Shown here one piece after another: positions 18,819 to 37,521 of a DNA stretch of 64,000 bases (the stretch's first letter is position 1; each line of letters begins with the position of its first letter). The stretch covers positions 50,821-114,820 of IMG/VR virus record IMGVR_UViG_3300029543_000174, one strand, 5' to 3'. This stretch comes from a virus (taxonomy: Duplodnaviria; Heunggongvirae; Uroviricota; Caudoviricetes). The notes beneath the pieces were generated by a model. It had not been told where the DNA came from. It searched no databases and saw nothing but the letters and a program-made list of their open reading frames with translations. Both the position numbers and the translations under genes were made by a program.

Positions 18819-18849
18819 CCACACACCGTAAAGGAATGTGGTTTTACGG
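18819..18849 (+). repeat. conserved box CCACACACCGTAAAGGAATGTGGTTTTACGG (copy 1 of 3)
   Basis: Contains a CCGTAAA/TTTACGG inverted repeat. Exact copy at 21758 and near-exact copy at 37493. Confidence 0.6.
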
Positions 18850-18917
18850 AAAGTTGTTTATATGATTTTCACAATTATATGGTGAAAGATTAATTTCTGT
18901 AACTCTTTTTTAATAAA

Positions 18918-18976
18918 TTGCGAATTTTAAGCAATATTTCAAATTTTTTCAAAATATTTGCGATTAATTATATAGA
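18918..18976 (+). promoter_or_regulatory. copy of recurrent promoter-like motif
   Basis: TTGCGA-N17-AAATTTTTTCAAAATATTTGCGATTAATTATATAG. Confidence 0.5.
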
Positions 18977-19003
18977 AACAAAAAACAAAAGGAGATTTTT
19001 ATT

Positions 19004-19264
19004 ATGACATACGAAGAAGTTTTAGAAAAAGATTTAGAACATTGTACAGGCTGTGAGAATTTTTATAAAGATGATTGTACAAAAACTTGTGCATATGGTA
19101 TTCACAGAAATTCTGTACAAAAACAGATACCGGTACAAGCAACGGTATATAACTTTCCAAAGGCTCAAATTGCATTTTGTCCTGAATGTAATAACTTACT
19201 TGGAAAAGATTCAAAATACTGTGATAAATGCGGTCAGAGGGTGAGAATTAATGCAGATGCTTGA
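19004..19264 (+). CDS. small zinc-ribbon protein
   Basis: CTGC...C..C...CPEC...CDKCG. RBS AAAGGAG. Confidence 0.45.
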   Translation: MTYEEVLEKDLEHCTGCENFYKDDCTKTCAYGIHRNSVQKQIPVQATVYNFPKAQIAFCPECNNLLGKDSKYCDKCGQRVRINADA

Positions 19265-19634
19265 TTCGATAAGGAAGACAATGCTTGTCTTTCCAAAAAG
19301 TTATATTAATTACAATAATGAGCTGATTTTAATTCCAAAATTCAATGTTTATATCTGTTTGGATAATATCATTTCTGACGAAGATTTCTATGTTGAACTT
19401 TGTGAAAACTTTAGTAGGGAATGTTCATCAGCGTTAAGGAGTTCATCAAAACCAACACTTTACAGATATTACAATAATAATACAAGAAATTTTAACAAAA
19501 TTTGCAACACTTCATTTTCAACAAAAGATATGGATACGATTTATGCAAAGTTAGGCAATGGTATTAATCATCAAATGGCTGTAGATTTTGTTAAATCAGG
19601 TTTTGATTTAAGCGTTTTAGGAGAAAATCAATGA
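19251..19634 (+). CDS. hypothetical protein
   Basis: Start overlaps the upstream gene (translational coupling). Confidence 0.4.
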   Translation: MQMLDSIRKTMLVFPKSYINYNNELILIPKFNVYICLDNIISDEDFYVELCENFSRECSSALRSSSKPTLYRYYNNNTRNFNKICNTSFSTKDMDTIYAKLGNGINHQMAVDFVKSGFDLSVLGENQ

Positions 19635-20110
19635 TTAAAGAAGATATGGCAAAACTATGTCCGTTCTATTCTTGTGTTGATAATGGTAATGTTAATTGTT
19701 TTGACCATCCGGTTTACATACAAACTTGTACTAAAACTAATCAAAAAACTTCACTCATTAATTGTAGCCGTTGTAAATGTGGTAATATTTACAGACAATT
19801 AATCGAAAAAGAATTCAAAAAGATACAAAATTTATCTGTCGAGACTTTTGCAGATTGGCTATGCAACAATTTGTTACAATGCAAGAACTGTGGACTCAAA
19901 TACCATAATTGTAAAAAACAATTAGCTTTTAATCTTAGCCAACCTTTGTCTGGTGGCTATGGTAATAAGCATTACAACGAGTTATCAACAGAGTTATTCT
20001 ATGAATTTTTAGAAACACAGTGGCTTTTTAATGACAGCAATAATATTAACAAAAATTTCAGTAAAAAGTTAATTACGATAATCGAAAAGGAGAAAAATAA
20101 TGAAAGTTAA
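19631..20110 (+). CDS. Cys-rich hypothetical protein
   Basis: GGAGAA RBS. Many Cys residues. Confidence 0.4.
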   Translation: MIKEDMAKLCPFYSCVDNGNVNCFDHPVYIQTCTKTNQKTSLINCSRCKCGNIYRQLIEKEFKKIQNLSVETFADWLCNNLLQCKNCGLKYHNCKKQLAFNLSQPLSGGYGNKHYNELSTELFYEFLETQWLFNDSNNINKNFSKKLITIIEKEKNNES

Positions 20111-20792
20111 TAATACTAAAGAATATTGTATTTTTCCGGAAATTAACAATAATTTAGAATTAAAACAAACCTTTAAGGAAATAAAGAAGAACAAAAGACA
20201 AGATTTTTTTTCTGAATTAAAAGAGACATTTAATTCAAAAAAGTTTAAATACATAGTTGTTAATATTATATTGGCAATTATTATAGTTCTTTGTAGCTAT
20301 GCTCGTTTTAATTTTATTGCTCCAATTGATTATGATTCTTTTCCACCTGATAAAAGAATTACACTAAAAATTGCTGTTGGGTTTGTATGTGTTCTTTTTG
20401 TATCATTAGCAGCACTTGTATTGAGATTGGTCGAAGGCAAAATTCAAGATTTAGTAATAGAAAAAAAGTTAAGTAAAATGTCATATAAGAAAATGCAATA
20501 TATACCTTTAACCAAATCTGAATTTATCAAATTAGAAATTCATAACATTACTGATTATGTAACTTTTTTAAATGATTTTTTGAAAGCAAAAATAGAATAT
20601 TTTGATATAAATGTTTTTTCAACTGCTTATAGAGCTGTAACTGCAACACCGCCACAAATGATTTTAGACAAAATCAATGAATCATTGATATATCTTGCAG
20701 AACTACCTGAAAGCGGACAACAAATTGGATTTAATGATGTTAATAAATTCATTGTTAAGAAAGGAGAAAATTATGGAACATTACACGACTAA
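20100..20792 (+). CDS. membrane protein
   Basis: AAAGGAG RBS. Three TM segments. Confidence 0.45.
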   Translation: MKVNNTKEYCIFPEINNNLELKQTFKEIKKNKRQDFFSELKETFNSKKFKYIVVNIILAIIIVLCSYARFNFIAPIDYDSFPPDKRITLKIAVGFVCVLFVSLAALVLRLVEGKIQDLVIEKKLSKMSYKKMQYIPLTKSEFIKLEIHNITDYVTFLNDFLKAKIEYFDINVFSTAYRAVTATPPQMILDKINESLIYLAELPESGQQIGFNDVNKFIVKKGENYGTLHD

Positions 20793-21021
20793 AATTAATA
20801 AGATTAAAGTAAAAAATATACCAAGACTATGTACAATATTAAGAGGCTGTGACCAATTTGTAATTTCGTCCGGTAATTATAGATTGGAAACAGCATCGTT
20901 GCTTATGATGATGTCACTTATCGGTCTTAGAAACGGTTTTAATCTTGATATTTATAATTATGATACTGAACGACAAAAGTTCATTATAAGGGAAATTGAG
21001 GCTCTTAAGAAAATCCTCTAA
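20773..21021 (+). CDS. small hypothetical protein
   Basis: ATG with a GGAGAA RBS. In frame with the listed 20695 ORF. Confidence 0.35.
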   Translation: MEHYTTKINKIKVKNIPRLCTILRGCDQFVISSGNYRLETASLLMMMSLIGLRNGFNLDIYNYDTERQKFIIREIEALKKIL

Positions 21022-21285
21022 CGGCCTTGACAGTTTTAATATATTGCGCTACACTAAGTGTATAGTAATTATTATTTATGATTTAATTTTATATATTTTA
21101 AATTCAAGGAATGTACTTTTTGAGAAAAGTGTGTTCCTTTTTTTTATTATAAATTTAATAAAAGTAAATTTTGAGCAGATACTTTTGGGTATTTGCTTTT
21201 TGTTTTTTCATAATAAAAAATAACAGACATATTAAATTTATGCTCAGTTTGTTATTTTGTTGTGAGCACAACAGGAGGTAGAATT

Positions 21286-21606
21286 ATGAAGAACGTTATT
21301 ACAAAAAATGAGATGCAGTCTATTCAAAATCTTATTTATGCTGTTACAAAAGCTTGTGCAATTGATATTCGTAAATATCGTATTTTTGTTGATAAACATG
21401 GTACGGAATTTATGGATAAGAAAATGCAAAAGGAGTTTGAAAAGTATTTGGAAAATTTTGAAGAATCGAAAGATTGGTTACTTGCTTCTGATATTGGTGT
21501 TGCAATTTTTGATAAACTTATGAATGAGAGCATTCAGGAAGCTAAGAAAAATTTGCATAACATGTATACATCAAAATCAGAAGAATACATTGAGGATGTT
21601 GCATAA
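21286..21606 (+). CDS. hypothetical protein
   Basis: ATG with an AGGAGG RBS. The listed 21262 start is less likely. Confidence 0.45.
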   Translation: MKNVITKNEMQSIQNLIYAVTKACAIDIRKYRIFVDKHGTEFMDKKMQKEFEKYLENFEESKDWLLASDIGVAIFDKLMNESIQEAKKNLHNMYTSKSEEYIEDVA

Positions 21607-21619
21607 TTTAATCAAACTA

Positions 21620-21649
21620 AAAAGAGCCACCGGAAGGGTGGCTTTTTTT
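21620..21649 (+). terminator. rho-independent terminator GAGCCACCGGAAGGGTGGCTTTTTTT
   Basis: Hairpin followed by a T-run. Confidence 0.7.
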
Positions 21650-21678
21650 ATGCCTTGATTTACTCTTTTGTAAACAAT

Positions 21679-21735
21679 TTGCGAAAATTGAGAAAATTTT
21701 CAAATTTTTTTGAAATATTTGCGATTTATATAGTG
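21679..21735 (+). promoter_or_regulatory. copy of recurrent promoter-like motif
   Basis: TTGCGA-N17-AAATTTTTTTTGAAATATTTGCGATTTATATAGTG. Confidence 0.5.
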
Positions 21736-21757
21736 AAGACTGAAAAAGAGTGAACTA

Positions 21758-21788
21758 CCACACACCGTAAAGGAATGTGGTTTTACGG
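21758..21788 (+). repeat. conserved box CCACACACCGTAAAGGAATGTGGTTTTACGG (copy 2)
   Basis: Identical to 18819..18849. Confidence 0.6.
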
Positions 21789-21834
21789 ATAGTTATTTAT
21801 AAATAACTTTTTTGTAATTTTAGGAGGATTTTTT

Positions 21835-23313
21835 ATGAGAACAAGAGGAAAATTAAATTTACACAAAATAATTCAAGATAACTTGAATTTATATATCAAA
21901 AAAATTAACGAAAAATACATATATCCTATTGATTATGCTTCGCCATGTACTATTTTGTTTGACTTAATTATGGATGTTATAAGAAAGGATAAAGATAATT
22001 TCTTGTTTTATAATTCATCACATAGTCTCAACGGAAAATTTACCAGTTTTGAATTTATATATTTTAATAATAATTATGATATTGTAAAACAATTTGCAAA
22101 AACTTATGAAAAAATATATAAAACAGGCAAAAATCCGGGCGATGTGGAATTGGAAATAAGGAATATGCGATTTGAAATAACAATTTCAGATTATATTGCA
22201 ATAACTGTGCAACCTTATCGATGGGTTAAATTGTATTGGGATAGAGCCTTTAAAAAACTTGAAATATCCACAACCACAAAAATTGGTAATAAACAATTAA
22301 TGTTAATATACAATGACGGAAGTATATATTCTCAAAAGAAATATTCAAAACAGTTTTATCCGTCTTCAATACATAAAGTTTTAGATCTTCCACACGAAAT
22401 TGCAGAATTAATATTTCAATTTTGCACATATAAAAATTATTTTTACAAAGATTTTTTGAATGAAAATTATCAATCAACTTTGGCACTAAATAATTTACAA
22501 AAATACCACAGTAAAAGTGAATACATGAATGATGTATTTCCTATCGCTAATTTTCCAAACAAAAGTAACAAACTTGAATTTTCGAATTTGTATATGATAG
22601 GTAGTGCGGCTAAATATGTTTTACCGGAGCAAATATCATTATTATTTGAAGATGCATTTTTGTGTGACGATTATGATCATAAAATTATGCCGGTCAGAAT
22701 TAATCGAGAATGTTGTGCTGAAGAATATTTAAAAGCAATATTTAGAAAGAGGTTTCACGATAAAGGCGATATAGACTGGTATAATTCATACTATTATATA
22801 ATTGATGATTATATAGATATGGCGATAGAACTTGGCGAAAAAATCAATTTAAAGGAAAGAAAAAGAAATATTCTTCAACTTCACGATTATTATTGTGATA
22901 AGATAACTGCCAAAAAAGTAGCTCAAGGCAGAAAAAAATTACAAATTCCTGAAACACCATTAAAGTATTTAGAACTGCCTGATAACTATAAAAAGCTTGA
23001 AAGATATAATGAATTTGTATCAGAAGGCAAAAAACAACACAATTGTGTTGCAAGCTATATAAGCGATGTGGAAGATGGCGAATGCATGATTTTTAGTGCA
23101 ACTGTGAATGATGAACGATTAACAATCGAAATCCGTGAAACAAAGACATCGTTTAAAATTAATCAGTGTTTAAAATCTTGTAATGAAAGATGCTTATCTG
23201 AAACATTTAAAATCGTAAAAACAGATGTAAAAAATGCGACAGAAAACGCCTACAAAAAATATAATGCCGTTCAAAAAAGAAGAAGAAACAAAGAATTAAA
23301 GGCAAAATTATAG
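21835..23313 (+). CDS. hypothetical protein (492 aa)
   Basis: TAGGAGG RBS. No confident domain. A PcfJ-like relationship was considered but is not supported. Confidence 0.5.
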   Translation: MRTRGKLNLHKIIQDNLNLYIKKINEKYIYPIDYASPCTILFDLIMDVIRKDKDNFLFYNSSHSLNGKFTSFEFIYFNNNYDIVKQFAKTYEKIYKTGKNPGDVELEIRNMRFEITISDYIAITVQPYRWVKLYWDRAFKKLEISTTTKIGNKQLMLIYNDGSIYSQKKYSKQFYPSSIHKVLDLPHEIAELIFQFCTYKNYFYKDFLNENYQSTLALNNLQKYHSKSEYMNDVFPIANFPNKSNKLEFSNLYMIGSAAKYVLPEQISLLFEDAFLCDDYDHKIMPVRINRECCAEEYLKAIFRKRFHDKGDIDWYNSYYYIIDDYIDMAIELGEKINLKERKRNILQLHDYYCDKITAKKVAQGRKKLQIPETPLKYLELPDNYKKLERYNEFVSEGKKQHNCVASYISDVEDGECMIFSATVNDERLTIEIRETKTSFKINQCLKSCNERCLSETFKIVKTDVKNATENAYKKYNAVQKRRRNKELKAKL

Positions 23314-23326
23314 AAAGGACTAACTT

Positions 23327-23815
23327 ATGGAAGAATTCAAGGTAGAATTAGAAAATTTAACTGATAAAGAAAAGAAAACTTTTCTTCACTTGGTTAAAAA
23401 AAGTAAAAAAAGTCGCAGAAAACATATGAACGAAATATATTACAGTATTGCTGAAGATGGAAATATTGTCGGCAGTGTTGAAAACGATACGCTTTACGAT
23501 GAAAACTGTTGGAAATTTGGAAATTATTATAACACCAAAGAAGAAGCTGAATTTGTAAAGCAAAAGCAATTAGTATATCAAGAACTGAAAAAATATGCCT
23601 TAGAACATAATACTAAGGATATTGATTGGGAAAATTATTTACAAATCAAATATTTTATTTATTGTAATACAAAGTCTAACGACCTTGGCATTATGGATGT
23701 ATCTAAAAGGAAAATAGCAGGGCAGGTATATTTTACCTCTGAAAAGATTGCAGAAAATGCAATTAAAGATATTGGTGAAGATAGAATTAAGAAGTATTTA
23801 TTTGAAATTAATTAA
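23327..23815 (+). CDS. hypothetical protein
   Basis: ORF. Confidence 0.45.
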   Translation: MEEFKVELENLTDKEKKTFLHLVKKSKKSRRKHMNEIYYSIAEDGNIVGSVENDTLYDENCWKFGNYYNTKEEAEFVKQKQLVYQELKKYALEHNTKDIDWENYLQIKYFIYCNTKSNDLGIMDVSKRKIAGQVYFTSEKIAENAIKDIGEDRIKKYLFEIN

Positions 23816-23830
23816 AAGGAGATAACTACA

Positions 23831-24262
23831 ATGCCTATTAAAAACTATACAACAAAAATTGATTGTTACCAGTCAATTGGAGAAATACAGGGTGCTCTTG
23901 CAAAACACGGTGCAAGACAGATTATGATTGATTATGATGAAAACGGTAAGCCTACCGGAATTGCATTTAAGCTTGTAAACGGTAATCAGTCGCAAGCATT
24001 TATTTTGCCGGCAAATATAGACGGTGTGCTTGAAACATTTAAAAAACAAAGAATTAAAGTTGACAGAGAACAGGCTGAAAAAACAGCTTGGCGCAATGTA
24101 AGAGATTGGATTCTTGCACAAATGGCATTTATTGAATCGGGTAATGTAGAAGTTGACGAAATATTCTTACCTTATCTGACTGACGGTAAAAAAACGCTGT
24201 ATCAAGCATATAAAACAGGACAACTACTATTAAGTGACGGAGGAAATACTTATAGTGCTTGA
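23831..24262 (+). CDS. hypothetical protein
   Basis: AAAGGAGA RBS. Confidence 0.45.
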   Translation: MPIKNYTTKIDCYQSIGEIQGALAKHGARQIMIDYDENGKPTGIAFKLVNGNQSQAFILPANIDGVLETFKKQRIKVDREQAEKTAWRNVRDWILAQMAFIESGNVEVDEIFLPYLTDGKKTLYQAYKTGQLLLSDGGNTYSA

Positions 24263-25136
24263 ATTTAACAAAATTTATGATATGGAAGGCACAGAAGGGC
24301 TATATGCACTTGAACCTCATTCGGTTGACCTGATTGTTGCCGACCTGCCTTACGGAGTCACAAAGAACAAATACGATATACCTATTCCTTTTCACAAAAT
24401 GTGGGAAGCAATTGATTATGCACGAAAACCAAATACAGCTATTCTTCTGTTCGGGCAAGGTAAGTTTTATATTAATTTATGTGCAAGTAATATTGATATG
24501 TTTCGATATGACTATTGCTGGAACAAAATACTTACATCAGGTTTTCTTAATGCATCGAGTATGCCATTACGACAGCATGAAAATATTGCTGTATTTTACG
24601 AACAAAGACCTACATACAATCCGCAATTTACAATAGGTCAACCTTTACATTCAAGAGGTAATTATACTCAAGACAAAGTTAATTCAAACTATTCTGATTT
24701 TAAGCTTAATGATAACAGAAAAGGATGTATGGAAAAATATCCTACTGATATATTAAGCTTTCCGATTGCTGATGAAGATGTCGAATTTTATGTTGACGGC
24801 TTGGATTATGAAAATCAAATATTCTATATTAATGACTTTATAGAATTTCAAAAAGTCCATCCAAGCAAAGCTATTCATCAAACAGAAAAGCCGGCAGGAC
24901 TTATGGATTTTCTTATTCGTACATATTCTAATCCCGGTGATTTAGTAGTTGACTTTACTTGCGGTTCTGCATCTACAAATTTAGCTGCAATAAGAAACAA
25001 AAGAAAAACAATTGGATTTGATTTCGGTAAATGTTTAAATCCAAAAAGTAAATATTATTTACAAAAATGGGCTGACATCGGAAATCAAAGAATTAAAGAG
25101 TTGATGGATATGCCTGAACAGATTACGTTTGTATAA
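24234..25136 (+). CDS. beta-class N6-adenine/N4-cytosine DNA methyltransferase (orphan)
   Basis: DLIVADLPYG (motif IV, DPPY-like) lies before VVDFTCGSASTNLAA (motif I), giving the beta-class order. An alternative GTG start at 24255 has a better GGAGG RBS. Confidence 0.75.
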   Translation: MTEEILIVLEFNKIYDMEGTEGLYALEPHSVDLIVADLPYGVTKNKYDIPIPFHKMWEAIDYARKPNTAILLFGQGKFYINLCASNIDMFRYDYCWNKILTSGFLNASSMPLRQHENIAVFYEQRPTYNPQFTIGQPLHSRGNYTQDKVNSNYSDFKLNDNRKGCMEKYPTDILSFPIADEDVEFYVDGLDYENQIFYINDFIEFQKVHPSKAIHQTEKPAGLMDFLIRTYSNPGDLVVDFTCGSASTNLAAIRNKRKTIGFDFGKCLNPKSKYYLQKWADIGNQRIKELMDMPEQITFV

Positions 25137-25146
25137 GGGAGAGATT

Positions 25147-25434: not shown

Positions 25435-25443
25435 TAAGGTGGC

Positions 25444-25842: not shown

Positions 25843-25845
25843 AAA

Positions 25846-26094: not shown

Positions 26095-26142
26095 TGTAAA
26101 AATTATTATTTTAATTATAATTAAAAAAGGAGGAAATAGTTA

Positions 26143-29429: not shown

Positions 29430-29442
29430 GGAGTTAAGAATT

Positions 29443-29535: not shown

Positions 29536-29556
29536 ATAATTAAGGAGAAAATTAAT

Positions 29557-29748: not shown

Positions 29749-29900
29749 TAGTAAATACTCTTCTTGGCAGTAGTCATTCTAAAATGATGATATTCCTGCT
29801 GCACAGAATATTTACGTTGAACGGACTGATATTTATAAAGAAAGAAAAATTCCTTTTATCGGAACTGAAAAATTATACGATTGTTTGGAGGTATAAAAAT

Positions 29901-30530
29901 ATGAGTTATACTGAACTTTGGGGCATTAAAAAAGATTGGTACGGTGAAGAAATCAAATCATATCAAAACAGTTATATATTTGTGCCTGTTATTTGTGACA
30001 AACTACTTTGTGAATACATATCGGAAAGTGAAAGAAGAAAAATGATCGGCTTCGATTCGGAAGCTATTAATTCTTATTTGTTCTTTTGTTTTATCGGTAT
30101 TGGTAATTGGGAAAAGCTTAACAATAAGATTAATGATTCTGATTGTTTCACTAACCGTATTATGTGGGATTTATGTAATTCAGGTATTTTTTCTGCAAAA
30201 GACAAAGAAAAAGTGGCTGATTGTATTATCAAATTTTCTGAAAAATATTTTTCTGATGAAGAATATGCCATTACTGCCAAAAGACTTCAAGAAGTTGCAG
30301 AAGATATACAAAATCTTGACAAAAAATATAAATATTTTTGTATTCATGGAACTTCTTGTGATGATAATGTTGAGCGTTGGTTTTACGACTTGGAAGGAGA
30401 AGCAGCACCACTATCTGATTGCTGTGACCCCGAATGTTGTTTTGTGACAATTTCAGATAATAATGAAATTTCATATAAGAATTGTTCGGAAGTGACAAAA
30501 AGAATTAAATTAAGGTGCAAAAATATATGA
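29901..30530 (+). CDS. Cys-rich hypothetical protein
   Basis: ATG with a GGAGG RBS. The listed 29784 start is less likely. Confidence 0.4.
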   Translation: MSYTELWGIKKDWYGEEIKSYQNSYIFVPVICDKLLCEYISESERRKMIGFDSEAINSYLFFCFIGIGNWEKLNNKINDSDCFTNRIMWDLCNSGIFSAKDKEKVADCIIKFSEKYFSDEEYAITAKRLQEVAEDIQNLDKKYKYFCIHGTSCDDNVERWFYDLEGEAAPLSDCCDPECCFVTISDNNEISYKNCSEVTKRIKLRCKNI

Positions 30531-30559
30531 GAAAAAAGATAGAATGGAAAATAGATAAA

Positions 30560-30592
30560 AGGCAGCAGGTAAATATATCTGCTGCTTTTTTA
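30560..30592 (+). terminator. rho-independent terminator AGGCAGCAG-GTAAATATAT-CTGCTGCTTTTTTAT
   Basis: Hairpin followed by a T-run. Confidence 0.65.
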
Positions 30593-30604
30593 TTTGTAAA
30601 CAAT

Positions 30605-30672
30605 TTGTGAAGATTTAAGAATATTTCAAATTTTTCCGAAATATTTGCGATTTATATAGTGAAGGCTCAAAA
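30605..30672 (+). promoter_or_regulatory. copy of recurrent promoter-like motif
   Basis: TTGTGA-N17-AAATTTTTCCGAAATATTTGCGATTTATATAGTG. Confidence 0.5.
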
Positions 30673-30710
30673 AAATGGGTCAAAGTTTCATATTATAGGA
30701 GGAATTTTTT

Positions 30711-31025: not shown

Positions 31026-31041
31026 AAAAGGAGAAAAAAAT

Positions 31042-31638: not shown

Positions 31639-31655
31639 AAAAGAAAGGAAAAATT

Positions 31656-32567
31656 ATGAGAAAGATAGAACAAAACAAATATTATAACAATTTTGATGAG
31701 GACAATGATGAGATGTATGTTGTACATAACAACGGAAGTTTTACAAAAAAATGGATAATCATCGGAGTTATTGCGTTTCTTTTTGTTGTTTTAATCGGAA
31801 CAAGTATGACACAAGTAAGAGCCGGTCATACAGGTGTTGTATCAACATTTGGTAAAATTAGTTCAAATGTATTGCAGGAAGGTTTACACTTTAAAGCGCC
31901 TTGGCAAAAGGTAACTAAGGTTGATAACCGTATTGTTAAACTTGAAATTGAAACAGAATCATCTACAAAGGATTTGCAGACTGTATCGGCAAAGTTAGCA
32001 ACAAGTTATCGTATTAATACCAATATGTCATATTCGATTATTAAAAATGTCGGTAAGAACTATGAAGATGTTTTGGTAACACCGGCAGTAAATGAGGTCC
32101 TTAAAGCCGTAACAGCTAAATATACAGCAGAAGAATGTATTTCATCAAGAAGTAACGTATCAAAAGAACTTGTAGATGAAATTAATAAAAAACTTAACGC
32201 TCAAGGTATTTATGTAAATGATGTAAATATTATTAATTTTGATTTCTCTGAGGCATATAATAAGGCAATTGAGGACAAGCAGGTTGCAGAGCAGAAATTA
32301 AAGAAAGCTGAAACAGATAAGCAGTCGGCAGTTGTAAAAGCACAGGCTGAGGCTGAAAAGAAAAAAATTGCTGCTGAGGCAGAAGCCGCGGCTACAAAGG
32401 TTAAAGCAGATGCACAAGCTGAGGCAAACGAAAAACTTAACAAATCAATTAATAAAAGCCTTATTGATTATGAAATTGCTAATAAGTGGAACGGTGAACT
32501 TCCTAAAGTATCAGGTTCAAATGGTACACTTATTAATTCAGACAGCTTGTTAAACGGCAAAAACTAA
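31656..32567 (+). CDS. SPFH/band-7 (stomatin/prohibitin/HflK-like) protein
   Basis: N-terminal TM, then GHTGVVSTFGKIS...GLHFKAPWQKV and an Ala/Glu/Lys-rich coiled-coil tail. Typical SPFH architecture. Confidence 0.7.
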   Translation: MRKIEQNKYYNNFDEDNDEMYVVHNNGSFTKKWIIIGVIAFLFVVLIGTSMTQVRAGHTGVVSTFGKISSNVLQEGLHFKAPWQKVTKVDNRIVKLEIETESSTKDLQTVSAKLATSYRINTNMSYSIIKNVGKNYEDVLVTPAVNEVLKAVTAKYTAEECISSRSNVSKELVDEINKKLNAQGIYVNDVNIINFDFSEAYNKAIEDKQVAEQKLKKAETDKQSAVVKAQAEAEKKKIAAEAEAAATKVKADAQAEANEKLNKSINKSLIDYEIANKWNGELPKVSGSNGTLINSDSLLNGKN

Positions 32568-32616
32568 CAAAAAAACAGCCAAGATATTATTTTTCTTGGC
32601 TGTACGAGGATTTTTT

Positions 32617-33297
32617 ATGTCAAACGATATGTATAAAAATAATTTAAAAAATTGGGTTGATAATTTTGACGAACAAACAAAGATTGAATCAGGCAAAGCT
32701 TTTAATACTTATTATAAGATGAAATCACAAAATGTTATTTATCCAAACAGTGCTGATATTTATAACGCTTTTATGAAAACTTCTTATGATGATGTTAAGG
32801 TTGTAATTTTAGGTCAAGACCCATATCACGAAGAAGGACAGGCAAACGGTTTGGCTTTTTCCGTCAACAACGGTGTGAAAATTCCACCTTCATTAAAGAA
32901 TATTTTTAAAGAACTTCAAGATGATATTGGCGGTGAACTTCGTACTAATACTGATTTGACCGATTGGGCTAAGCAGGGTGTATTTCTTTTGAACTCGTCT
33001 TTAACTGTTATAGAGGGTAGACCTAACTCAATGGCTGATATTTGGAATACTTTTACCGACAGTATCATTAAACTACTGAACAATAAGGAAAAGCCTATTG
33101 TATTTGTTCTTTGGGGCAAAAATGCAAGAGATAAGAAAAAGTTAATTGATACAAATAAACATTTTATTATTGAATCTGCACATCCAAGTCCATTATCGGC
33201 ATACAGAGGTTTCTTTGGTTCAAAGCCGTTTTCAAAAGTAAATGAATATCTTATTTCTACCGGTCAAGTACCGATTGATTGGGTAGGTGAATGCTAA
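32617..33297 (+). CDS. ung: uracil-DNA glycosylase, family 1
   Basis: GQDPYH, LLLNSSLTV and HPSPLSA motifs. ATG start at 32617; the listed 32596 is a TTG. Confidence 0.8.
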   Translation: MSNDMYKNNLKNWVDNFDEQTKIESGKAFNTYYKMKSQNVIYPNSADIYNAFMKTSYDDVKVVILGQDPYHEEGQANGLAFSVNNGVKIPPSLKNIFKELQDDIGGELRTNTDLTDWAKQGVFLLNSSLTVIEGRPNSMADIWNTFTDSIIKLLNNKEKPIVFVLWGKNARDKKKLIDTNKHFIIESAHPSPLSAYRGFFGSKPFSKVNEYLISTGQVPIDWVGEC

Positions 33298-33967
33298 AAT
33301 GGATTTGCGTTTACAATTGTTCATTTTGGGTATTGGTATTGGCTTGTTACTAAATTTTAGTATTAAGAGCCTTTATAATTTGCTGAAATATAAGCCTGAA
33401 AATAATAAGAAAGCAAGTGCAAAAATCATTGATAGTTCATACGACTATGTTTACATACACGAAGCAGGGCATGCGTTTCTTGCACACATGTTTTGCAATG
33501 AATATTTCGTTGAGGCTGATATATCTAAAGATAAAAGTCCTTGTGTTACAACATATAGCAAAGAAATTTGTACAAAAGATGATGTTAAAAATCTAATTCT
33601 TATATGTTATGCAGGGGCGGCGGCAGAAGAAGTTATTTTAGGTGAATTTAGTGCCGGTTCTATAATCAGTAACAAATATAATGATAGTGATTTTGTAAAG
33701 TGTGTTGATTTCTTAAAAGCATATATTCTTTTAGAAGAAAATAATTCTTCACACCCTAAAGAATCAAGACACAGTAAAACAATGCTTGACAGTGATTTTA
33801 ACGATTTAATAGTTGAAAAAAGCAAGCTATTTTATAATGAAACACTTAAAATCATTGAACAGAACAAAAAAGTGATTATAGAATTTGCTAATTTGATTAA
33901 AAAGAAAAGACAATTGTCAAAGGATGAAATTGATGAATTTCTTATCAAAAAGGATTTGAACTTATGA
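33287..33967 (+). CDS. HExxH zinc-metalloprotease-like membrane protein (FtsH/ImmA-like motif HEAGHA)
   Basis: N-terminal TM, then YIHEAGHAFLAH. Confidence 0.4.
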   Translation: MNAKMDLRLQLFILGIGIGLLLNFSIKSLYNLLKYKPENNKKASAKIIDSSYDYVYIHEAGHAFLAHMFCNEYFVEADISKDKSPCVTTYSKEICTKDDVKNLILICYAGAAAEEVILGEFSAGSIISNKYNDSDFVKCVDFLKAYILLEENNSSHPKESRHSKTMLDSDFNDLIVEKSKLFYNETLKIIEQNKKVIIEFANLIKKKRQLSKDEIDEFLIKKDLNL

Positions 33968-34126
33968 TATATTTTGTGATTATAATTTTTGTAATCGTAG
34001 TTGTTTGTTCAGCATGGTTTTTGATTGAAGATTATAAACTAACTAAAGAATTTAACAATGAAATACAAAAATTAAGTGATAATTTAGATTCTGTTATAGA
34101 AAAATTAACTAAAGGAGAAAATAATT

Positions 34127-34912
34127 ATGAAGAATAACACATACAATTTTGAGAAAAAACAATCTGTTTTTGGATTGTTGAAAATGATAATTAGCATATA
34201 TAAGGTATTTGATGCCGGAATGATTATCATAAGTTTTGCTTTATCTGTACTGTTTAATATATTCCTTAATAATCAATACTTTAAGGAAAGTGAGACTTGG
34301 ACTAATACATTAAAATATGAACGACTATTTACTAACATTATATATTCTTTTATATTTGTAGTAAGTTTTTTCATTATCTTATTTGCTTTGTCTTGGATTG
34401 TAAGAGGCATTACATACGGCTGCGCAAAAATTAAGTCATTCTTAAAAATGAGATACTTACCATTATCAAGTAAGGAAATCGAAGAAACTCTTGGTGAAAA
34501 ATCTAAATATTATGACTATATTAATTTTATCAATGATTTTCTTAAGGTGAAATTATTCTATTTTGACTCATCTGTAATCTCTACTTTTACTTTTATAAAT
34601 GAATGGAGCAAAAAATATTGTATAATTAAAATCCCAAGTGAATTATTTGATCAAATTGCGGAAAGTGCAGTTAAATATTACAATTGTACTAAAGACGAAT
34701 TTATTGATTCTTTTGAATATGAGAAAGCAAAATATGAGATGATAGATGATAGTAAGGACCTTTATATTGGCAAAATTTCTTTTGCAAAAAACGGCGAAAC
34801 AATAACCCTTATCGAGTATAATAGCTGTAATGATATTAAAGTGAAATTTAAGGATGGAACTATTGTTAGCACAACATATTATAACTTTATTACTGGAAAT
34901 ATTGACAAATAA
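34127..34912 (+). CDS. membrane protein with C-terminal 48-aa repeat-family module
   Basis: Three TM segments. The C-terminus GETITLIEYNSCNDIKVKFKDGTIVSTTYYNFITGNI matches the repeat unit of 37664..38425. Confidence 0.45.
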   Translation: MKNNTYNFEKKQSVFGLLKMIISIYKVFDAGMIIISFALSVLFNIFLNNQYFKESETWTNTLKYERLFTNIIYSFIFVVSFFIILFALSWIVRGITYGCAKIKSFLKMRYLPLSSKEIEETLGEKSKYYDYINFINDFLKVKLFYFDSSVISTFTFINEWSKKYCIIKIPSELFDQIAESAVKYYNCTKDEFIDSFEYEKAKYEMIDDSKDLYIGKISFAKNGETITLIEYNSCNDIKVKFKDGTIVSTTYYNFITGNIDK

Positions 34913-34926
34913 TACAGGAGAAAAAT

Positions 34927-35688
34927 ATGATTTATGTAACAGGTGATTGTCACGGCGATTGGAGAAGATTTCAACCAAACTGTTTTCCAGAACAGAAAAA
35001 TATGAACCGTGACGATTACGTAATTGTGTGCGGCGATTTTGGTATATGGCATGATACATATGGCAAAGAAACAGAAGAACTTAACAAACTTACAAAGTTG
35101 CCATTCACTATTCTTTTTGTGGATGGCAACCACGAAAATTATGACCGTCTTGAAAGTGAATTCCCTGAAGTCAATTTTCATGGCGGTAAAGCACATAAGA
35201 TAAGAGAAAATGTATATCATCTTGAAAGAGGATATGTGTTTGAATTACAAGGAAAAAAATTCTTCTGTTTTGGTGGTGCTTCTTCACACGATATAAGCGA
35301 TGGTATTCTTGACCCAAATGATTATAAATCAGAAAAGAATTTCGTTAAGGTATATAACGAATATAATTTATCCGGTAAAATGTTTAGGGTAAAAAATATA
35401 TCTTGGTGGAAAAGAGAATTACCAAATGAAGAAGAAATGCAACGAGGGTTAGATAATCTGAAAGAAAATAACAATAAGGTCGATTTCATAATATCTCATT
35501 GTGCTCCAGAATCTATTGCAGATATTATAGGCTGTGGACTGTATCAAGAAGATATACTTACAGATTATTTTGAAAAAATCAAAAATACGGTCCATTTTAC
35601 AAAATGGATATTTGGTCACTACCATGATGATATTAAATTTTTAGATGATTATATCTTATTGTATTATCAATTTGTGAGAATTGTATGA
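34927..35688 (+). CDS. calcineurin-like metallophosphoesterase
   Basis: GDCHGD, CGDFG, DGNHEN, ISHCAP and GHYHDD motifs. Confidence 0.7.
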   Translation: MIYVTGDCHGDWRRFQPNCFPEQKNMNRDDYVIVCGDFGIWHDTYGKETEELNKLTKLPFTILFVDGNHENYDRLESEFPEVNFHGGKAHKIRENVYHLERGYVFELQGKKFFCFGGASSHDISDGILDPNDYKSEKNFVKVYNEYNLSGKMFRVKNISWWKRELPNEEEMQRGLDNLKENNNKVDFIISHCAPESIADIIGCGLYQEDILTDYFEKIKNTVHFTKWIFGHYHDDIKFLDDYILLYYQFVRIV

Positions 35689-35902
35689 CGGAAAGAAGGT
35701 GGATATATTGACGATTGTTCACTACAAAGGTTATTCAGGAGAAATTCATTTTTCTAAAGAAGATAATCTGTTTGTAGGTCAAATAATTAATATTGTCGAT
35801 TCAATCAATTTCCACGGAAAAACAATCGAAGAATGCATTGAGTATTTCCACAAATCTGTTGATGAGTATATATTAATTCAGAAAGATTGTGCACAACGGT
35901 AA
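35681..35902 (+). CDS. HicB-family antitoxin-like protein (orphan)
   Basis: YKGYSGEIHFSKEDNLFVGQII...GKTIEECIEYFHKSVDEY resembles the HicB/UPF0150 N-terminal domain. TTG start. No HicA partner is seen. Confidence 0.4.
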   Translation: MYDGKKVDILTIVHYKGYSGEIHFSKEDNLFVGQIINIVDSINFHGKTIEECIEYFHKSVDEYILIQKDCAQR

Positions 35903-35968
35903 AAACAAATATTTACTTTTTTATAAAAACAGTGTAATATAAACACAAGAAAATATAAGAGGAAAATT

Positions 35969-36292
35969 ATGGAACAGAAAAACATCAAAGAAAAATTACA
36001 TAATCATATTAAGCCATTAGGCACCGGTGATTTGTATTTTTTGTATTATAAAATATATGGGCTTAGTGAGGTATCAACTACAGCGTTTCTTAATGACATA
36101 TATAATCATTTTACTATTTTTGCAAAAAAATATGATTGCACTTGTAAAAAATCGAATCTTTTAAAGCCCCAAAAAAATGAAATTGGTTTTGCGGTAAAAG
36201 TAGAAGGCGCTCCTGAGAAGATTAACAAATTAGCATATGCTATTGCTGATATTTTGCAACAAAACTCAATTGAGGATTTTAGCAATGTGTAA
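35969..36292 (+). CDS. hypothetical protein
   Basis: ORF. Confidence 0.4.
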   Translation: MEQKNIKEKLHNHIKPLGTGDLYFLYYKIYGLSEVSTTAFLNDIYNHFTIFAKKYDCTCKKSNLLKPQKNEIGFAVKVEGAPEKINKLAYAIADILQQNSIEDFSNV

Positions 36293-37244
36293 AAAATTAA
36301 CATTCAAAATACTTGTGATTTTAACTTCATTCCTGCTGCTGTTTGGTTGTTCAGCTAATGTAGTTAATAATACAACACAGCAAAGTATATCTAATACTGT
36401 ATCAACTACAAACAGTCAAAAAAGTAGCAAAAATAACATTACAAGTAGCACGACAACAGAACAGACTTTTGATATTTCTTCGATACCTGAATACAATGGT
36501 TCACCTTATGTTGAAATTAACGATAACGTACCACAATTCACAAAGAGTGAGATTACTACATCATCATTTGAGATATATGGTGGTTTAGACGGTCTTGGAC
36601 GGTGTACAACGGCTTTTTCTTGTATAGGTAAAGACTTAATGCCAACAGAAAAAAGAGGGGAGATAGGCTCAGTAAAACCGACAGGCTGGCATCTTGCTAA
36701 ATATGATTTTATTGACGGCAAATATCTTTACAACAGGTGTCATTTGATAGGTTATCAACTTACAGGTGAGAATGCTAATGAAAAGAATCTGATTACAGGC
36801 ACGAGATACCTTAATATTCAAGGTATGCTGCCTTTTGAGAACGAAGTAGCTGAATATATTAAAAACACAAACAACCATGTTATGTACCGTGTAACACCTA
36901 TATTTGAGGAAGATAATCTTCTTGCCGATGGTGTGCAAATGGAAGGATATTCAGTTGAAGATAATGGCAGAAGTATTTCATTCAATGTATTCTGTTACAA
37001 TGTTCAACCCGGCGTGAATATTAATTATGCAACCGGCGATAACTCTACATCAGGAGAATATACAACAACAACTGATGAAGATATAACGGACACATATATT
37101 GTAAATCTCAATACAAAAAAATTCCACAAACCAAGTTGTAGTTCAATATCTCAAATGAGTAAGAAAAATAAAAAACAATACAAAGGAAAAAGAAGCAGTT
37201 TGATTAACAATGGTTACGAGCCTTGTAAAAACTGCAATCCGTAA
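36285..37244 (+). CDS. lipoprotein, EndA/NucA-like secreted DNA nuclease
   Basis: Lipoprotein signal MCKKLTFKILVILTSFLLLFGC. NRCHLIGYQLTGENANEKNLITG resembles the DRGH-type DNA-entry nuclease core. Cys-rich C-terminus. Confidence 0.5.
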   Translation: MCKKLTFKILVILTSFLLLFGCSANVVNNTTQQSISNTVSTTNSQKSSKNNITSSTTTEQTFDISSIPEYNGSPYVEINDNVPQFTKSEITTSSFEIYGGLDGLGRCTTAFSCIGKDLMPTEKRGEIGSVKPTGWHLAKYDFIDGKYLYNRCHLIGYQLTGENANEKNLITGTRYLNIQGMLPFENEVAEYIKNTNNHVMYRVTPIFEEDNLLADGVQMEGYSVEDNGRSISFNVFCYNVQPGVNINYATGDNSTSGEYTTTTDEDITDTYIVNLNTKKFHKPSCSSISQMSKKNKKQYKGKRSSLINNGYEPCKNCNP

Positions 37245-37247
37245 GAT

Positions 37248-37487
37248 ATGACAAATTATACATCATCTAATAAAACAAAAAGTACAGAATATACATATTT
37301 TGTTGCAACAACAGTTAATAGTAAGGATAATTCTACAAGCAAACAGTTATTCAGAGAACACTTTGCTACTGTTGAGGTATATAATATATATAACGGTCAT
37401 TTTGTAGAAAATACTAATTATGTTCCTATTAGAACACATTTCATTTCTTCTTCATTTGATTCTGCTTTATCATATCACTTACGGTAA
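37248..37487 (+). CDS. hypothetical protein (no RBS)
   Basis: ORF only. Confidence 0.25.
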   Translation: MTNYTSSNKTKSTEYTYFVATTVNSKDNSTSKQLFREHFATVEVYNIYNGHFVENTNYVPIRTHFISSSFDSALSYHLR

Positions 37488-37492
37488 ATTAC

Positions 37493-37521
37493 CACACACC
37501 TAAAGGAATGTGGTTTTACGA
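37493..37521 (+). repeat. conserved box CCACACACC-TAAAGGAATGTGGTTTTACG (copy 3, 1-nt deletion)
   Basis: Near-identical to copies at 18819 and 21758. Confidence 0.55.

What the first reader, a model, noticed from the sequence alone, without database searches (positions are those of the whole stretch)
18819..37521. Conserved 30-nt hairpin box CCACACACCGTAAAGGAATGTGGTTTTACGG in three intergenic positions
The box is identical at 18819 and 21758 and has a 1-nt deletion at 37493. It contains a CCGTAAA/TTTACGG inverted repeat and a CCACA/TGTGG inverted repeat. It always lies within about 100 bp of a promoter-motif copy, but the order relative to that copy varies. A 31-codon ORF spans copy 1, but the reading frame is not preserved in copies 2 and 3. 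This favours an RNA or DNA element: an operator for an element-encoded regulator, an RNA processing site, or an attenuator.
Basis: seen in the sequence. Interest (0 to 1): 0.55.

Follow-up and report, generated by a model that had tools for sequence, protein, structure and literature searches.

The report
Leftover stub of IscB transposon
The repeated "hairpin box" is the 48-49 bp remnant of an IscB-carrying IS200/IS605 transposon: its two ends joined on one shared hairpin, scattered in the non-coding gaps of an uncultured gut phage. This is a known kind of transposon remnant, not a phage regulatory signal.

Summary
An exact 31-mer occurs at 18819 and 21758, and a variant at 37492. The repeated unit is 48-49 bp (18811-18859, 21750-21798, 37484-37531).

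Copy 2 is a clean 49-bp insertion. Three close relatives have an empty site, and there is no target duplication.

A sibling phage carries a 1.7-kb IscB element (Rfam HEARO 92.6 bits; NCBIfam IscB 348 bits). Its two ends carry this same palindrome as a direct repeat. The box equals its first 8 bp, one palindrome and its last 18 bp. A bacterial TnpB element shares the same ends.

Read on the minus strand, the copies follow TTTAT (some ATAT) and most end in TTCAC. These are the motifs published for the Geobacillus ISGst IS605 family.

The box is therefore a "terminal-only" mini-element, as described for 52-bp elements in Haloquadratum. It most likely formed by deletion between the two terminal hairpins. 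Spread of the mini itself is the main rival.

There is no evidence for an operator, attenuator or processing site. Interest is low to moderate; this is a new member of a known kind.

Side find: a TnpB-family protein lacking two of three catalytic residues, next to phage mini-CRISPR arrays.

The parts
18811..18859 (-). Mini-element copy 1 (49 bp). On the + strand it reads GTCAACTG | CCACACACCGTAAAGGAATGTGG | TTTTACGGAAAGTTGTTT. The transposase-active ('top') strand is the minus strand. The iscB/omega-RNA sense strand is the + strand.
   Evidence: (D8). The copy is present in all relatives fetched at this site (L001, L003, L005, L046, L047, L055). Its outer parts diverge from copy 2 (4 differences in 18 nt) while the inner 31 nt are identical.
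18819..18841 (.). Subterminal imperfect palindrome of copy 1 (9-bp stem with 2 mismatches, 5-nt loop)
   Evidence: Folds. The same palindrome occurs at both ends of the L062 IscB element.
21750..21798 (-). Mini-element copy 2 (49 bp): GTGAACTA | CCACACACCGTAAAGGAATGTGG | TTTTACGGATAGTTATTT. It lies in the 5'UTR of the PcfJ-like gene (21835-23313), just downstream of a phage promoter motif.
   Evidence: It is a clean insertion relative to the empty sites in L042, L043 and L044, with no target duplication. Its left 31 nt match the L062 right end / HEARO start at 30 of 31 positions. Its right 32 nt match the L062 left end at 31 of 32.
21758..21780 (.). Imperfect palindrome of copy 2
21799..21803 (+). 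ATAAA, the complement of the transposon-adjacent motif (TAM) TTTAT. It abuts the left end of copy 2 and is retained in the empty sites of relatives.
   Evidence: empty site gaaaaaga|ATAAAcaacg. TAM TTTAT for the ISGst2 family is reported in PMC10055086.
37484..37531 (-). Mini-element copy 3 (48 bp): GTAAATTA | CCACACACCTAAAGGAATGTGG | TTTTACGAATAGATATTT. It supplies the stop codon (37485-37487) of ORF 37248-37487 and is followed by a terminator and then a promoter motif.
   Evidence: The orthologous copy in sibling L008 carries 4 substitutions (ccacGTGcctaaagAaatgtgg ... atagCtattt).
37492..37513 (.). Imperfect palindrome of copy 3 (22-nt form, loop TAAA)
29817..29839 (+). Related feature, not a box. 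This is the vacant insertion site of the sibling phage's IscB element: TTGAACGGACTGATATTT (identical to the 18 nt just upstream of the omega-RNA scaffold in L062) followed by TAM ATAAA.
   Evidence: L062 has the 1709-bp IscB element in place of window 29835-30554.

Best explanation
Each box is the core of a 48-49 bp 'terminal-only' derivative of an IS200/IS605-superfamily transposon of the IscB (ISC) type.

Composition. The element consists of:
- the last 8 nt of the transposon right end (TAGTTCAC on the transposon's top strand, i.e. a linker plus the transposon-encoded motif TTCAC);
- a single copy of the subterminal imperfect palindrome that the Y1 transposase TnpA recognises;
- the first 18 nt of the left end.
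It sits with its top strand on the phage minus strand, immediately 3' of the target motif TTTAT (ATAAA on the + strand), with no target duplication.

Relation to the omega-RNA. Read on the + strand, the first 31 nt are the start of the IscB guide-RNA scaffold (HEARO / omega-RNA). The remaining ~180 nt of the scaffold and iscB itself are missing.

Origin. The most likely origin (inferred, about 0.55-0.6) is this: 1.7-kb IscB(+TnpA) elements like the one still present in a sibling phage inserted at these sites. They later lost their core by deletion between their two directly repeated 22/23-nt terminal palindromes, leaving one palindrome flanked by both tips.

Function. The stub probably has no dedicated function for the phage. 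Two incidental effects follow by inference. It adds a modest hairpin to the transcripts. It also separates the former guide-matching flank from its ATAAA motif, so that allele should no longer be cut by the cognate IscB-omega-RNA.
For: Shown by tool results:
1. Insertion polymorphism with precise junctions and no duplication at copy 2.
2. Sibling phage locus L062 carries a 1709-bp element whose + strand begins GTGAACTA-CCACACACTGTAAAGGAATGTGG-CTTC. This is the start of an Rfam HEARO match (RF02033, 92.6 bits against a gathering score of 83, E = 5e-19). It is followed by iscB (Pfam RRXRR + HNH; NCBIfam guided_IscB 348.5 bits against a cutoff of 175), a tnpA remnant, and then CCACACACCTAAAGGAATGTGG-TTTTACGGATAGTTATTT|ATAAA. 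Copy 2 matches these two tips at 30/31 and 31/32 positions.
3. A bacterial MAG (L045) has the same left end (TTTTAT|AAAAACATAGCCGCAAAA-palindrome) and the same right-end tail (TAGTTCAC) around a tnpB gene on the opposite strand to iscB. This matches the published rule that ISC and IS605B elements share termini with opposite gene orientation (PMC4810608).
4. Ten distinct mini insertion sites and five long-element sites were found across phage, metagenome and genome loci. All are preceded on the top strand by TTTAT (most) or ATAT. The tail is TAGTTCAC at six of the ten mini sites. The other four, including window copies 1 and 3, carry one- or two-base variants (CAGTTGAC, TAATTTAC, TAGTTCAT).
5. 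Published TAM TTTAT and TEM TTCAC for the G. stearothermophilus IS605 family, with the IscB omega-RNA bounded by the right end (PMC10055086).
6. Left-end guide logic: the AAAA 5' of the hairpin foot against target TTAT parallels IS608 AAAG against TTAC (PMC5027513).
7. Direct precedent: 52-bp terminal-only PATEs made by repeat-mediated deletion between the near-terminal palindromes of IS605-type elements (PMC3119063).
8. RE hairpins of other IscB elements in viral contigs covary (CCCACTACC/GGTAGTGGG, CCATAGACC/GGTCTATGG and others) behind an invariant GTGAACTA.

Supporting the in-situ collapse sub-claim:
- TnpA excision needs both ends intact.
- The minis' outer parts are as diverse as those of full-length left ends, and they pair up with them (copy 2 = L008/L049; L060 resembles L045).
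- The exact palindrome was found once in 185,579 species-representative bacterial and archaeal genomes, and that hit was a full tnpB element, not a mini.
Against: - No site was found that carries the full-length element in one genome and the mini in another. In-situ collapse is therefore inferred, not observed.
- Minis outnumber full-length copies (10 sites against about 2 IscB sites in this phage clade). This could equally mean that the mini spreads on its own.
- Copy 2's loop (CCG) is not a simple crossover product of the two L062 hairpins (CTG and CC-). Its parent must have been a slightly different element.
- The searches required an exact or nearly exact palindrome, so conservation of the hairpin among the retrieved copies is partly built in by the search.
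- No intact tnpA was seen: L062's is internally deleted, and the L051 reading frame has an in-frame stop.
- No expression data are available, so a secondary RNA-level role cannot be excluded.
Confidence: 0.88

Rival explanations
1. The box has the same identity (the tips of an IS605/IscB element on one hairpin), but the 49-bp unit is itself an active non-autonomous transposon (an ultra-short PATE). A Y1 TnpA supplied in trans by the host or a co-infecting element moves it from site to site. Under this view each copy arrived as a mini, not as a 1.7-kb element.
For: - There are ten distinct mini sites, all at the TAM, against very few full-length copies.
- Copy 2 is private to this genome, and no full-length allele was seen at its site.
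- Dyall-Smith et al. raised the same possibility for the 52-bp ISHwa23 derivative: 6 strain-specific insertions were all of the terminal-only form (PMC3119063).
- Some minis have AAAG instead of AAAA 5' of the hairpin foot (L050, L054). By IS608-type rules this could pair with both TTAT and TCAC (inference).
Against: - The canonical mechanism uses a TnpA dimer that binds a left-end and a right-end hairpin, and excision needs both ends (PMC10055086).
- The mini has one hairpin and only the left-end-type guide (AAAA), which mismatches the last base of the right-end motif TCAC.
- No minis were found in the 185,579 species-representative bacterial and archaeal genomes, where TnpA donors live.
- The minis' outer sequences are heterogeneous, rather than forming a single homogeneous family expanding from one master copy.
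Confidence: 0.3
2. The box is a phage cis-regulatory element: an operator for a phage DNA-binding protein, an attenuator or antiterminator RNA, or an RNase processing/stability site.
For: - All three copies lie in promoter- or terminator-containing gaps, in one orientation.
- The RNA hairpin is moderately stable (-13 kcal/mol, z = -2.1).
- Two stem variants in relatives (ttacacacc, ccacgcacc) would remain G-U pairs in + strand RNA.
Against: - The box is absent from the orthologous 5'UTR in 3 close relatives that have an intact promoter, ribosome-binding site and gene.
- Its position relative to promoter and terminator is inconsistent: it is in a 5'UTR once and in a 3' region twice.
- Copy 3 has 4 substitutions in a sibling.
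- There is no Rfam family match.
- The sequence is fully accounted for by transposon termini.
Confidence: 0.04
3. The box is a functional truncated guide-RNA module: a decoy or 'anti-omega' hairpin that binds IscB, or a seed for trans-acting omega-RNA. The phage keeps it to interfere with IscB elements.
For: - The + strand RNA reproduces the first helix and hairpin of the HEARO/omega-RNA (alignment).
- All copies are in the transcribed orientation.
- The window carries an intact target plus TAM for the sibling's IscB at 29817-29839.
Against: - Only 31 of about 211 scaffold positions are present, and there is no HEARO hit even at E <= 10.
- No iscB is present in the window.
- Copies carry substitutions.
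- No data exist on IscB binding to this hairpin alone.
Confidence: 0.03
4. The box is a REP-like element propagated by a RAYT (TnpA-REP) domesticated transposase.
For: It is a single extragenic imperfect palindrome of about 23 nt with short conserved flanks, found mostly at 3' ends of genes, and it is related to IS200/IS605 ends (general knowledge; PMC4810608).
Against: - Copy number is low (3 in 64 kb).
- There is no inverted pair (BIME) arrangement and no GTAG-type 5' tetranucleotide.
- The flanks match both tips of a specific IscB element.
- No RAYT was seen in any locus examined. The whole phage genome could not be scanned.
Confidence: 0.02

Closest known systems
Terminal-only (~52 bp) PATEs of Haloquadratum walsbyi (HqIRS46 core deletion; ISHwa23 derivative), Dyall-Smith et al. 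2011, PMC3119063
   Same: About 50 bp long. Each consists of both tips of an IS605-type element around one copy of the near-terminal palindrome. They arise by deletion between the directly repeated palindromes (22 or 19 bp there; 22/23 nt here). There is no target duplication. They insert next to a short targeting motif. Whether the stub can still move is an open question in both cases.
   Different: The Haloquadratum elements are in an archaeal chromosome, and their parents are TnpB (IS1341-type) elements or larger PATEs. Here the host is an uncultured ~170-200 kb gut phage and the parent is an IscB(+TnpA remnant) element. As a result the stub also equals the 5' tip of an omega-RNA.
ISGst1-5 IS605-like family of Geobacillus stearothermophilus (Meers et al. 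2023, PMC10055086)
   Same: TAM TTTAT (ISGst2), TEM TTCAC, an IscB omega-RNA (HEARO) bounded by the right end, gene-less PATE-like relatives, and mobilisation in trans by one TnpA.
   Different: The host, the sequence and the palindrome all differ. The Geobacillus PATE-like elements were identified by pairing separate LE and RE models, and PATEs are said to often encode omega-RNAs. The stub here has one hairpin and no omega-RNA body.
HEARO RNA / IscB omega-RNA (Rfam RF02033)
   Same: The first 31 nt (GUGAACUA plus the first hairpin with its UAAAGGA loop) are the 5' end of the scaffold. The full RNA is present in sibling locus L062.
   Different: The window copies lack about 180 nt of scaffold and the adjacent iscB, and they do not score against the model.
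ISC / IS605B transposon pairs sharing termini (Kapitonov et al. 2016, PMC4810608)
   Same: The same termini serve an IscB element (L062) and a TnpB element (L045) with opposite gene orientation. There is no duplication. The subterminal hairpins are imperfect. A rare iscB-then-tnpA co-directional, overlapping arrangement (ISC2Y-like) is also seen.
   Different: The target here is N|ATAAA (TTTAT on the top strand), not the GT|GG, GT|RA or N|ATGA targets listed in that paper.
IS608 of Helicobacter pylori (mechanistic paradigm)
   Same: Insertion 3' of a tetranucleotide or pentanucleotide target. The left cleavage site lies about 18-19 nt 5' of the hairpin and the right one about 8-10 nt 3' of it. 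A guide tetranucleotide sits 5' of the hairpin foot (AAAG/TTAC there; AAAA/TTAT here).
   Different: IS608 has two hairpins and carries tnpA and tnpB. Its target is TTAC and its right end is TCAA.
REP elements and RAYT
   Same: Single extragenic imperfect palindromes evolutionarily linked to IS200/IS605 ends.
   Different: REPs are high-copy chromosomal elements with a dedicated domesticated transposase and a conserved 5' tetranucleotide. None of these features was seen here.

Membership tests
IS200/IS605 superfamily non-coding derivative (PATE, terminal-only form) | No terminal inverted repeats; a subterminal imperfect palindrome is present | tested here: met
   CCACATTCC-TTTA(C)-GGTGTGTGG on the top strand: a 9-bp stem with T.G and T.T positions. 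No terminal inverted repeats.
IS200/IS605 superfamily non-coding derivative (PATE, terminal-only form) | Insertion 3' of a specific 4-5 nt target, without target-site duplication, shown by an empty orthologous site | tested here: met
   Copy 2 against L042, L043 and L044: gaaaaaga|49 bp|ATAAA, with no duplication. All 15 sites are preceded on the top strand by TTTAT (most) or ATAT.
IS200/IS605 superfamily non-coding derivative (PATE, terminal-only form) | Termini shared with a full-length element encoding TnpA, TnpB or IscB | tested here: met
   L062 IscB element: 30/31 and 31/32 identity to the two tips. L045 tnpB element: same left end and the same TAGTTCAC tail.
IS200/IS605 superfamily non-coding derivative (PATE, terminal-only form) | Cleavage motifs complementary to guide bases 5' of the hairpin foot (TAM with left guide, TEM with right guide) | tested here: inconclusive
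   Left side: AAAA against TTAT fits the IS608 AAAG/TTAC pattern. In the full elements the right-end guide is AGAAG against TTCAC (L062, L045). The mini keeps only the left guide, which mismatches the last base of the TEM. This was read from the sequences; no biochemical test was done.
IS200/IS605 superfamily non-coding derivative (PATE, terminal-only form) | Two near-terminal palindromes (as in a canonical complete PATE) | tested here: not met
   There is only one palindrome per 48-49 bp unit. This is the defining trait of the 'terminal-only' subclass described in PMC3119063.
IS200/IS605 superfamily non-coding derivative (PATE, terminal-only form) | Mobilisation by a Y1 (HUH) TnpA | not testable with these tools
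   Only tnpA remnants were seen next to related left ends (L062 deleted; L051 and L048 truncated or with a stop codon).
HEARO RNA / IscB omega-RNA (RF02033) | Match to the covariance model at or above the gathering score | tested here: not met
   No HEARO hit in the window at the gathering threshold, nor at E <= 10 around copy 1. L062 scores 92.6 bits against 83.
HEARO RNA / IscB omega-RNA (RF02033) | Located directly upstream of an iscB gene | tested here: not met
   tblastn of the L062/L008 IscB against the window finds nothing.
REP / RAYT system | High-copy extragenic palindromes with a cognate RAYT gene and a conserved 5' tetranucleotide | tested here: not met
   There are 3 copies in 64 kb. 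No RAYT-like ORF was seen in the loci examined. The flanks are transposon tips. The whole genome was not available.
Structured cis-regulatory RNA (riboswitch, pseudoknot or attenuator) | Conserved pairing with covariation of the proposed stems and a fixed position relative to a regulated gene | tested here: not met
   The CCGTAAA/TTTACGG stem is broken in many copies. Position varies between 5'UTR and 3' region. The box is absent in relatives. No Rfam match.
Intrinsic terminator | GC-rich hairpin followed by a U-run | tested here: not met
   The hairpin is followed by TTTTACGG and no T-run. Separate canonical terminators lie nearby (21620-21650; 37545-37570).

The most novel reading that the evidence does not exclude
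The most novel reading has two parts.

(a) The 49-bp single-hairpin stub may be a selected 'resistance allele' against an RNA-guided homing nuclease. Collapsing the IscB element onto one hairpin sheds 1.7 kb of cargo. It also keeps the guide-matching flank separated from its ATAAA motif. Unlike a precise TnpA excision, this means the allele cannot be re-cut and re-converted by IscB from a co-infecting sibling phage.

(b) The stub may still be mobilised by TnpA. That would mean one hairpin carrying both cleavage motifs is a sufficient transposition substrate.
Probability: 0.25. Interest if true: 0.6.

Novelty: new member of a known kind. Interest (0 to 1): 0.3.

Why it matters
The result removes a false lead. 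The box should be annotated as a transposon remnant, not as a phage operator or RNA switch.

It also shows that this clade of large gut phages is repeatedly colonised by IscB/TnpB IS605-type elements. The window has three stubs. It also has an intact, uncut target plus TAM for a sibling phage's IscB. The window therefore offers a natural system for studying RNA-guided homing and its loss in phage populations.

If the stubs turn out to be homing-resistant alleles, or are still mobile with a single hairpin, that would bear on how these selfish RNA-guided nucleases are held in check and on the minimal substrate of Y1 transposases.

Tried and rejected
- **Known RNA family:** Rfam found only tRNAs at the gathering threshold, and nothing relevant at E <= 10 around copy 1.
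- **H-type pseudoknot or small riboswitch (preQ1-like):** I rejected it because the second stem is not conserved and the loop geometry is poor.
- **Right end of a TnpB element:** this was my first idea, from L016. The palindrome is similar there. However, the window box combines a left end with a right-end tail, and the closest parent is an IscB element. The idea was refined rather than dropped.
- **Megablast of 18000-23000 against cultured/INPHARED phages:** no match. A protein-level search gives only distant gut-phage fragments.
- **tnpB, iscB or tnpA in the window:** none found.
- **A site with both full-length and mini alleles:** none found.
- **Same-site comparison of the 22-nt and 23-nt loop forms (L053 against L002/L057):** too few differences to discriminate between origins.
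- **Side quest on ORF 46557-48353:** Pfam, NCBIfam, PADLOC and PDB sequence searches were empty. Single-sequence AlphaFold was unusable (pLDDT 41). Only the large homology search placed the ORF in the TnpB family.
- **CRISPR spacers:** no match in the phage collection or in any fetched locus.

Full report
**Observation**

The exact 31-mer occurs at 18819-18849 and 21758-21788, and appeared in none of 100 dinucleotide shuffles. A third copy shares the 18-mer AAAGGAATGTGGTTTTAC at 37502. It starts at 37492 and differs by a deleted G and by a G>A change near its end.

The repeat finder and direct reading show that the conserved unit is longer than 31 nt, about 49 bp (D8). The window is 31% G+C, all genes are on the + strand, and the proteins match phage families. 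It is an uncultured phage. Rfam finds only six tRNAs, and nothing at the boxes.

**Relatives and the empty site**

Scanning viral contigs for the 18-mer recovered the box in 166-192 kb sibling phages. I fetched the neighbourhood of the gene downstream of copy 2 from three siblings (91-94% amino-acid identity). They have the same promoter, ribosome-binding site and gene, but no box. The window carries a clean 49-bp insertion, GTGAACTA...GTTATTT, between gaaaaaga and ATAAAcaac, with no duplicated target.

Copy 3 is present in a sibling but carries 4 substitutions against 97% background identity. Copy 1 is present in every sibling retrieved.

**What the sequence is**

A looser pattern also hit loci where the complement of the box core overlaps the 3' end of tnpB genes. 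This pointed to IS200/IS605 ends.

A scan of one genome per species found the exact palindrome once, in an Acutalibacteraceae MAG (L045). There it reads TTTTAT|AAAAACATAGCCGCAAAA-CCACATTCCTTTAGGTGTGTGG-..., followed by tnpB (Pfam OrfB_IS605), then ...-CCATAGTGCCTTTCGGCCTATGG-TAGTTCAC|. The minus-strand reading of the box is TTTAT|AAATAACTATCCGTAAAA-CCACATTCCTTTACGGTGTGTGG-TAGTTCAC|. This is that left end joined directly to that right-end tail.

The metagenome scan added more copies. They fall into two classes:
- minis, in which the palindrome is followed by TAGTTCAC or a close variant;
- long elements, in which the palindrome is followed by ATACACGG..., with an outer stem that covaries (CCGT/ACGG, CCGC/GCGG, GTGGC/GCCAC).

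In total there are ten distinct mini sites and five long-element sites. All are preceded on the top strand by TTTAT (most) or ATAT.

**The parent element**

In sibling phage IMGVR_UViG_3300045988_183299 the long element is complete (L062, L008) and spans 1709 bp. On the phage + strand it begins GTGAACTA-CCACACACTGTAAAGGAATGTGG-CTTCTG... This is the start of a HEARO / IscB omega-RNA match (RF02033, 92.6 bits, gathering score 83, E = 5e-19).

It continues with iscB, 447 aa (Pfam RRXRR + HNH; NCBIfam guided_IscB 348.5 bits against a cutoff of 175). Next comes an internally deleted tnpA whose start overlaps the iscB 3' end. It ends ...GTGTAT-CCACACACCTAAAGGAATGTGG-TTTTACGGATAGTTATTT|ATAAA.

The two terminal palindromes are therefore near-identical direct repeats. 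Copy 2 equals the first 31 nt (30/31 identical) plus the last 32 nt (31/32 identical) of this element. Other IscB elements in viral contigs keep GTGAACTA and vary the hairpin by compensatory changes. A mini of another subfamily also exists (L143).

**Fit to published rules**

[quoted passage not shown] They also report that the Geobacillus ISGst family uses TAM TTTAT and TEM TTCAC, that TnpA excision needs both ends, and that gene-less PATE-like relatives exist (PMC10055086).
- Kapitonov et al. report that ISC and TnpB-only elements share termini with opposite gene orientation and make no target duplication (PMC4810608). This is what L062 and L045 show.
- The IS608 left guide AAAG, 5' of the hairpin foot, reads the target TTAC (PMC5027513). 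Here AAAA faces TTAT.
- Dyall-Smith et al. describe 52-bp 'terminal-only' PATEs formed by deletion between the directly repeated near-terminal palindromes of IS605-type elements. They leave open whether such stubs still move (PMC3119063).

The window boxes are the same kind of object, derived from an IscB element and residing in a phage.

**Mechanism**

What is shown: the identity of the parts, the insertion polymorphism, the target motif, and the existence of the parent element in a sibling phage.

What is inferred: how the copies formed. I favour collapse in place by repeat-mediated deletion, at about 0.55-0.6, for four reasons.
- The canonical transposase dimer needs two hairpins.
- The stub keeps only the left-type guide.
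- The stubs' outer parts are as heterogeneous as those of full-length left ends, and they pair with them.
- No stubs were found in the bacterial and archaeal species-representative genomes.

The rival, that the stub spreads as an ultra-short PATE, is supported by the excess of stub sites over full-length sites and by the absence of any site showing both states.

Either way, nothing indicates a role in phage regulation:
- the position relative to promoter and terminator varies;
- relatives lack the box at copy 2;
- one copy has accumulated substitutions in a sibling;
- the folds are only moderately better than shuffles (DNA z = -0.7 to -3.5; RNA z about -2).

The promoter proximity is real but modest. 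All 3 copies lie in promoter-bearing gaps, which make up about a quarter of the ~27 gaps in a crude gene call. Selection against insertions in coding sequence explains this. There may also be an advantage for IscB elements that are transcribed from outside, but that is inference.

One logical consequence is that a stub separates the former guide-matching flank from its ATAAA motif. That allele should therefore escape cleavage by the cognate IscB. This is untested.

**Verdict**

The regulatory interpretation is not supported. The box is a new member of a known kind: a terminal-only PATE-like remnant of an IscB IS200/IS605 element. Interest is low to moderate.

**By-products**

- The window retains an intact target plus TAM (29817-29839) for the sibling's IscB.
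- Three mini CRISPR-type arrays, each behind a conserved ~145-nt leader, flank the tRNA cluster. Their spacers differ from a sibling's arrays.
- The 598-aa ORF just upstream (46557-48353) belongs to the TnpB family only by distant homology (E about 1e-19 to 1e-24 to proteins named TnpB or transposase). The alignment shows D>G and E>Q at two of the three RuvC catalytic positions. This suggests an RNA-guided protein without nuclease activity. It deserves its own study.

Noticed in passing
window 48374-50770 (arrays 48517-48631, 49826-50006, 50653-50767; leaders 48374-48552, 49683-49861, 50510-50688): There are three phage-borne mini CRISPR-type arrays. The repeat is 36 nt (GTTTTGGTACTGTAGTAAATTACACTACTCTAAAAG; the third array uses a variant) and the spacers are 30 nt. 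Each array follows a conserved ~145-nt leader or scaffold. The arrays flank a 6-tRNA cluster (48825-49667). Some spacers are GC-rich compared with the phage. They have no match in the phage collection or in the fetched loci, and they differ from the sibling's array (L049).
   Followed up: partly
window 46557-48353 (+): This 598-aa ORF lies directly upstream of the first leader and array. It has no Pfam, NCBIfam, PADLOC or PDB hit. It does have distant homologues named TnpB or transposase (E = 1e-19 to 1e-24). The alignment shows RuvC-I D>G (GVGIS), RuvC-II E>Q (NIQKN) and RuvC-III D retained. It also has an N-terminal coiled-coil insertion. It is a candidate TnpB/Cas12-like protein without nuclease activity, associated with guide arrays.
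   Followed up: partly
window 29817-29839; sibling L062 4309-6035: The window keeps the vacant target of the sibling phage's IscB: TTGAACGGACTGATATTT followed by TAM ATAAA. In the sibling, the 1709-bp IscB element replaces window 29835-30554 (most of ORF 29784-30530). In other words, the insertion is accompanied by a 720-bp adjacent deletion between two ATAAA sites.
   Followed up: partly
L049 7200-7470 (sibling OLRZ01000005.1) compared with window 48583-48660: In a sibling phage the first CRISPR-type array is followed directly by 26 nt of IscB-element interior, the left-end palindrome and 18 nt, before ATAAAAAATAATTTAGGAGG. The window has no remnant at that position. This is another polymorphic IS605 footprint, and it abuts an array.
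   Followed up: partly
window ~6800-6876, 10488-10567, 18903-18975, 21664-21747, 30590-30673, 37577-37660, 42943-43047, 46180-46290, 46432-46542: A phage-specific promoter-like module (TTGCGAA-N13-TTTCAAATTTTT-N4-AAATATTTGCGATTTATATA) is repeated at least 8 times, usually after a terminator. A second motif class (TTGCGCGATATATA) occurs at 8041, 52245, 52423, 52512 and 52648.
   Followed up: no
window ~21667-21736 compared with L042 1290-5950: Siblings carry an extra ~4.5-kb gene module between two copies of the promoter module. The window lacks it, apparently through recombination between the promoter repeats.
   Followed up: partly
window 37709-38317 and 34793-34861: Five copies of a 69-nt coding repeat (...IxVxFEDGT...) lie inside ORF 37664-38425, with one more in ORF 34127-34912. 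Function unknown (D6).
   Followed up: no
window 51875-52136 and 63738-63999: A 262-nt direct repeat, 91% identical, with copies 11.9 kb apart (D4).
   Followed up: no
L145-L147 (IMGVR_UViG_3300049825_000745, 64.5 kb): One viral contig carries at least 5 copies of another HEARO-type start (GTGAACTACCACACACTGACCTTCGGTACAGTGTGGGCTTCC...). This suggests a burst of IscB or omega-RNA elements in a single phage genome.
   Followed up: no
L051 420-870; L048 33-272; L062 5880-6000: The tnpA genes next to related left ends are all damaged: one has an in-frame stop, one is truncated and one is internally deleted. tnpA starts inside the iscB 3' end, which is the rare iscB-tnpA co-directional arrangement.
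   Followed up: partly
L010 740-800: A right-end-like piece (GTGAACTA-CCCACACCTAAAGGAATGGG-CTTC) lies inside a 166-aa minus-strand ORF of an unrelated viral contig. No HEARO match follows it. It is either a remnant or a chance ORF.
   Followed up: partly
L053 near its 3' end: The contig ends in the Nextera adapter sequence CTGTCTCTTATACACATC. This is an assembly artefact in the public record.
   Followed up: no
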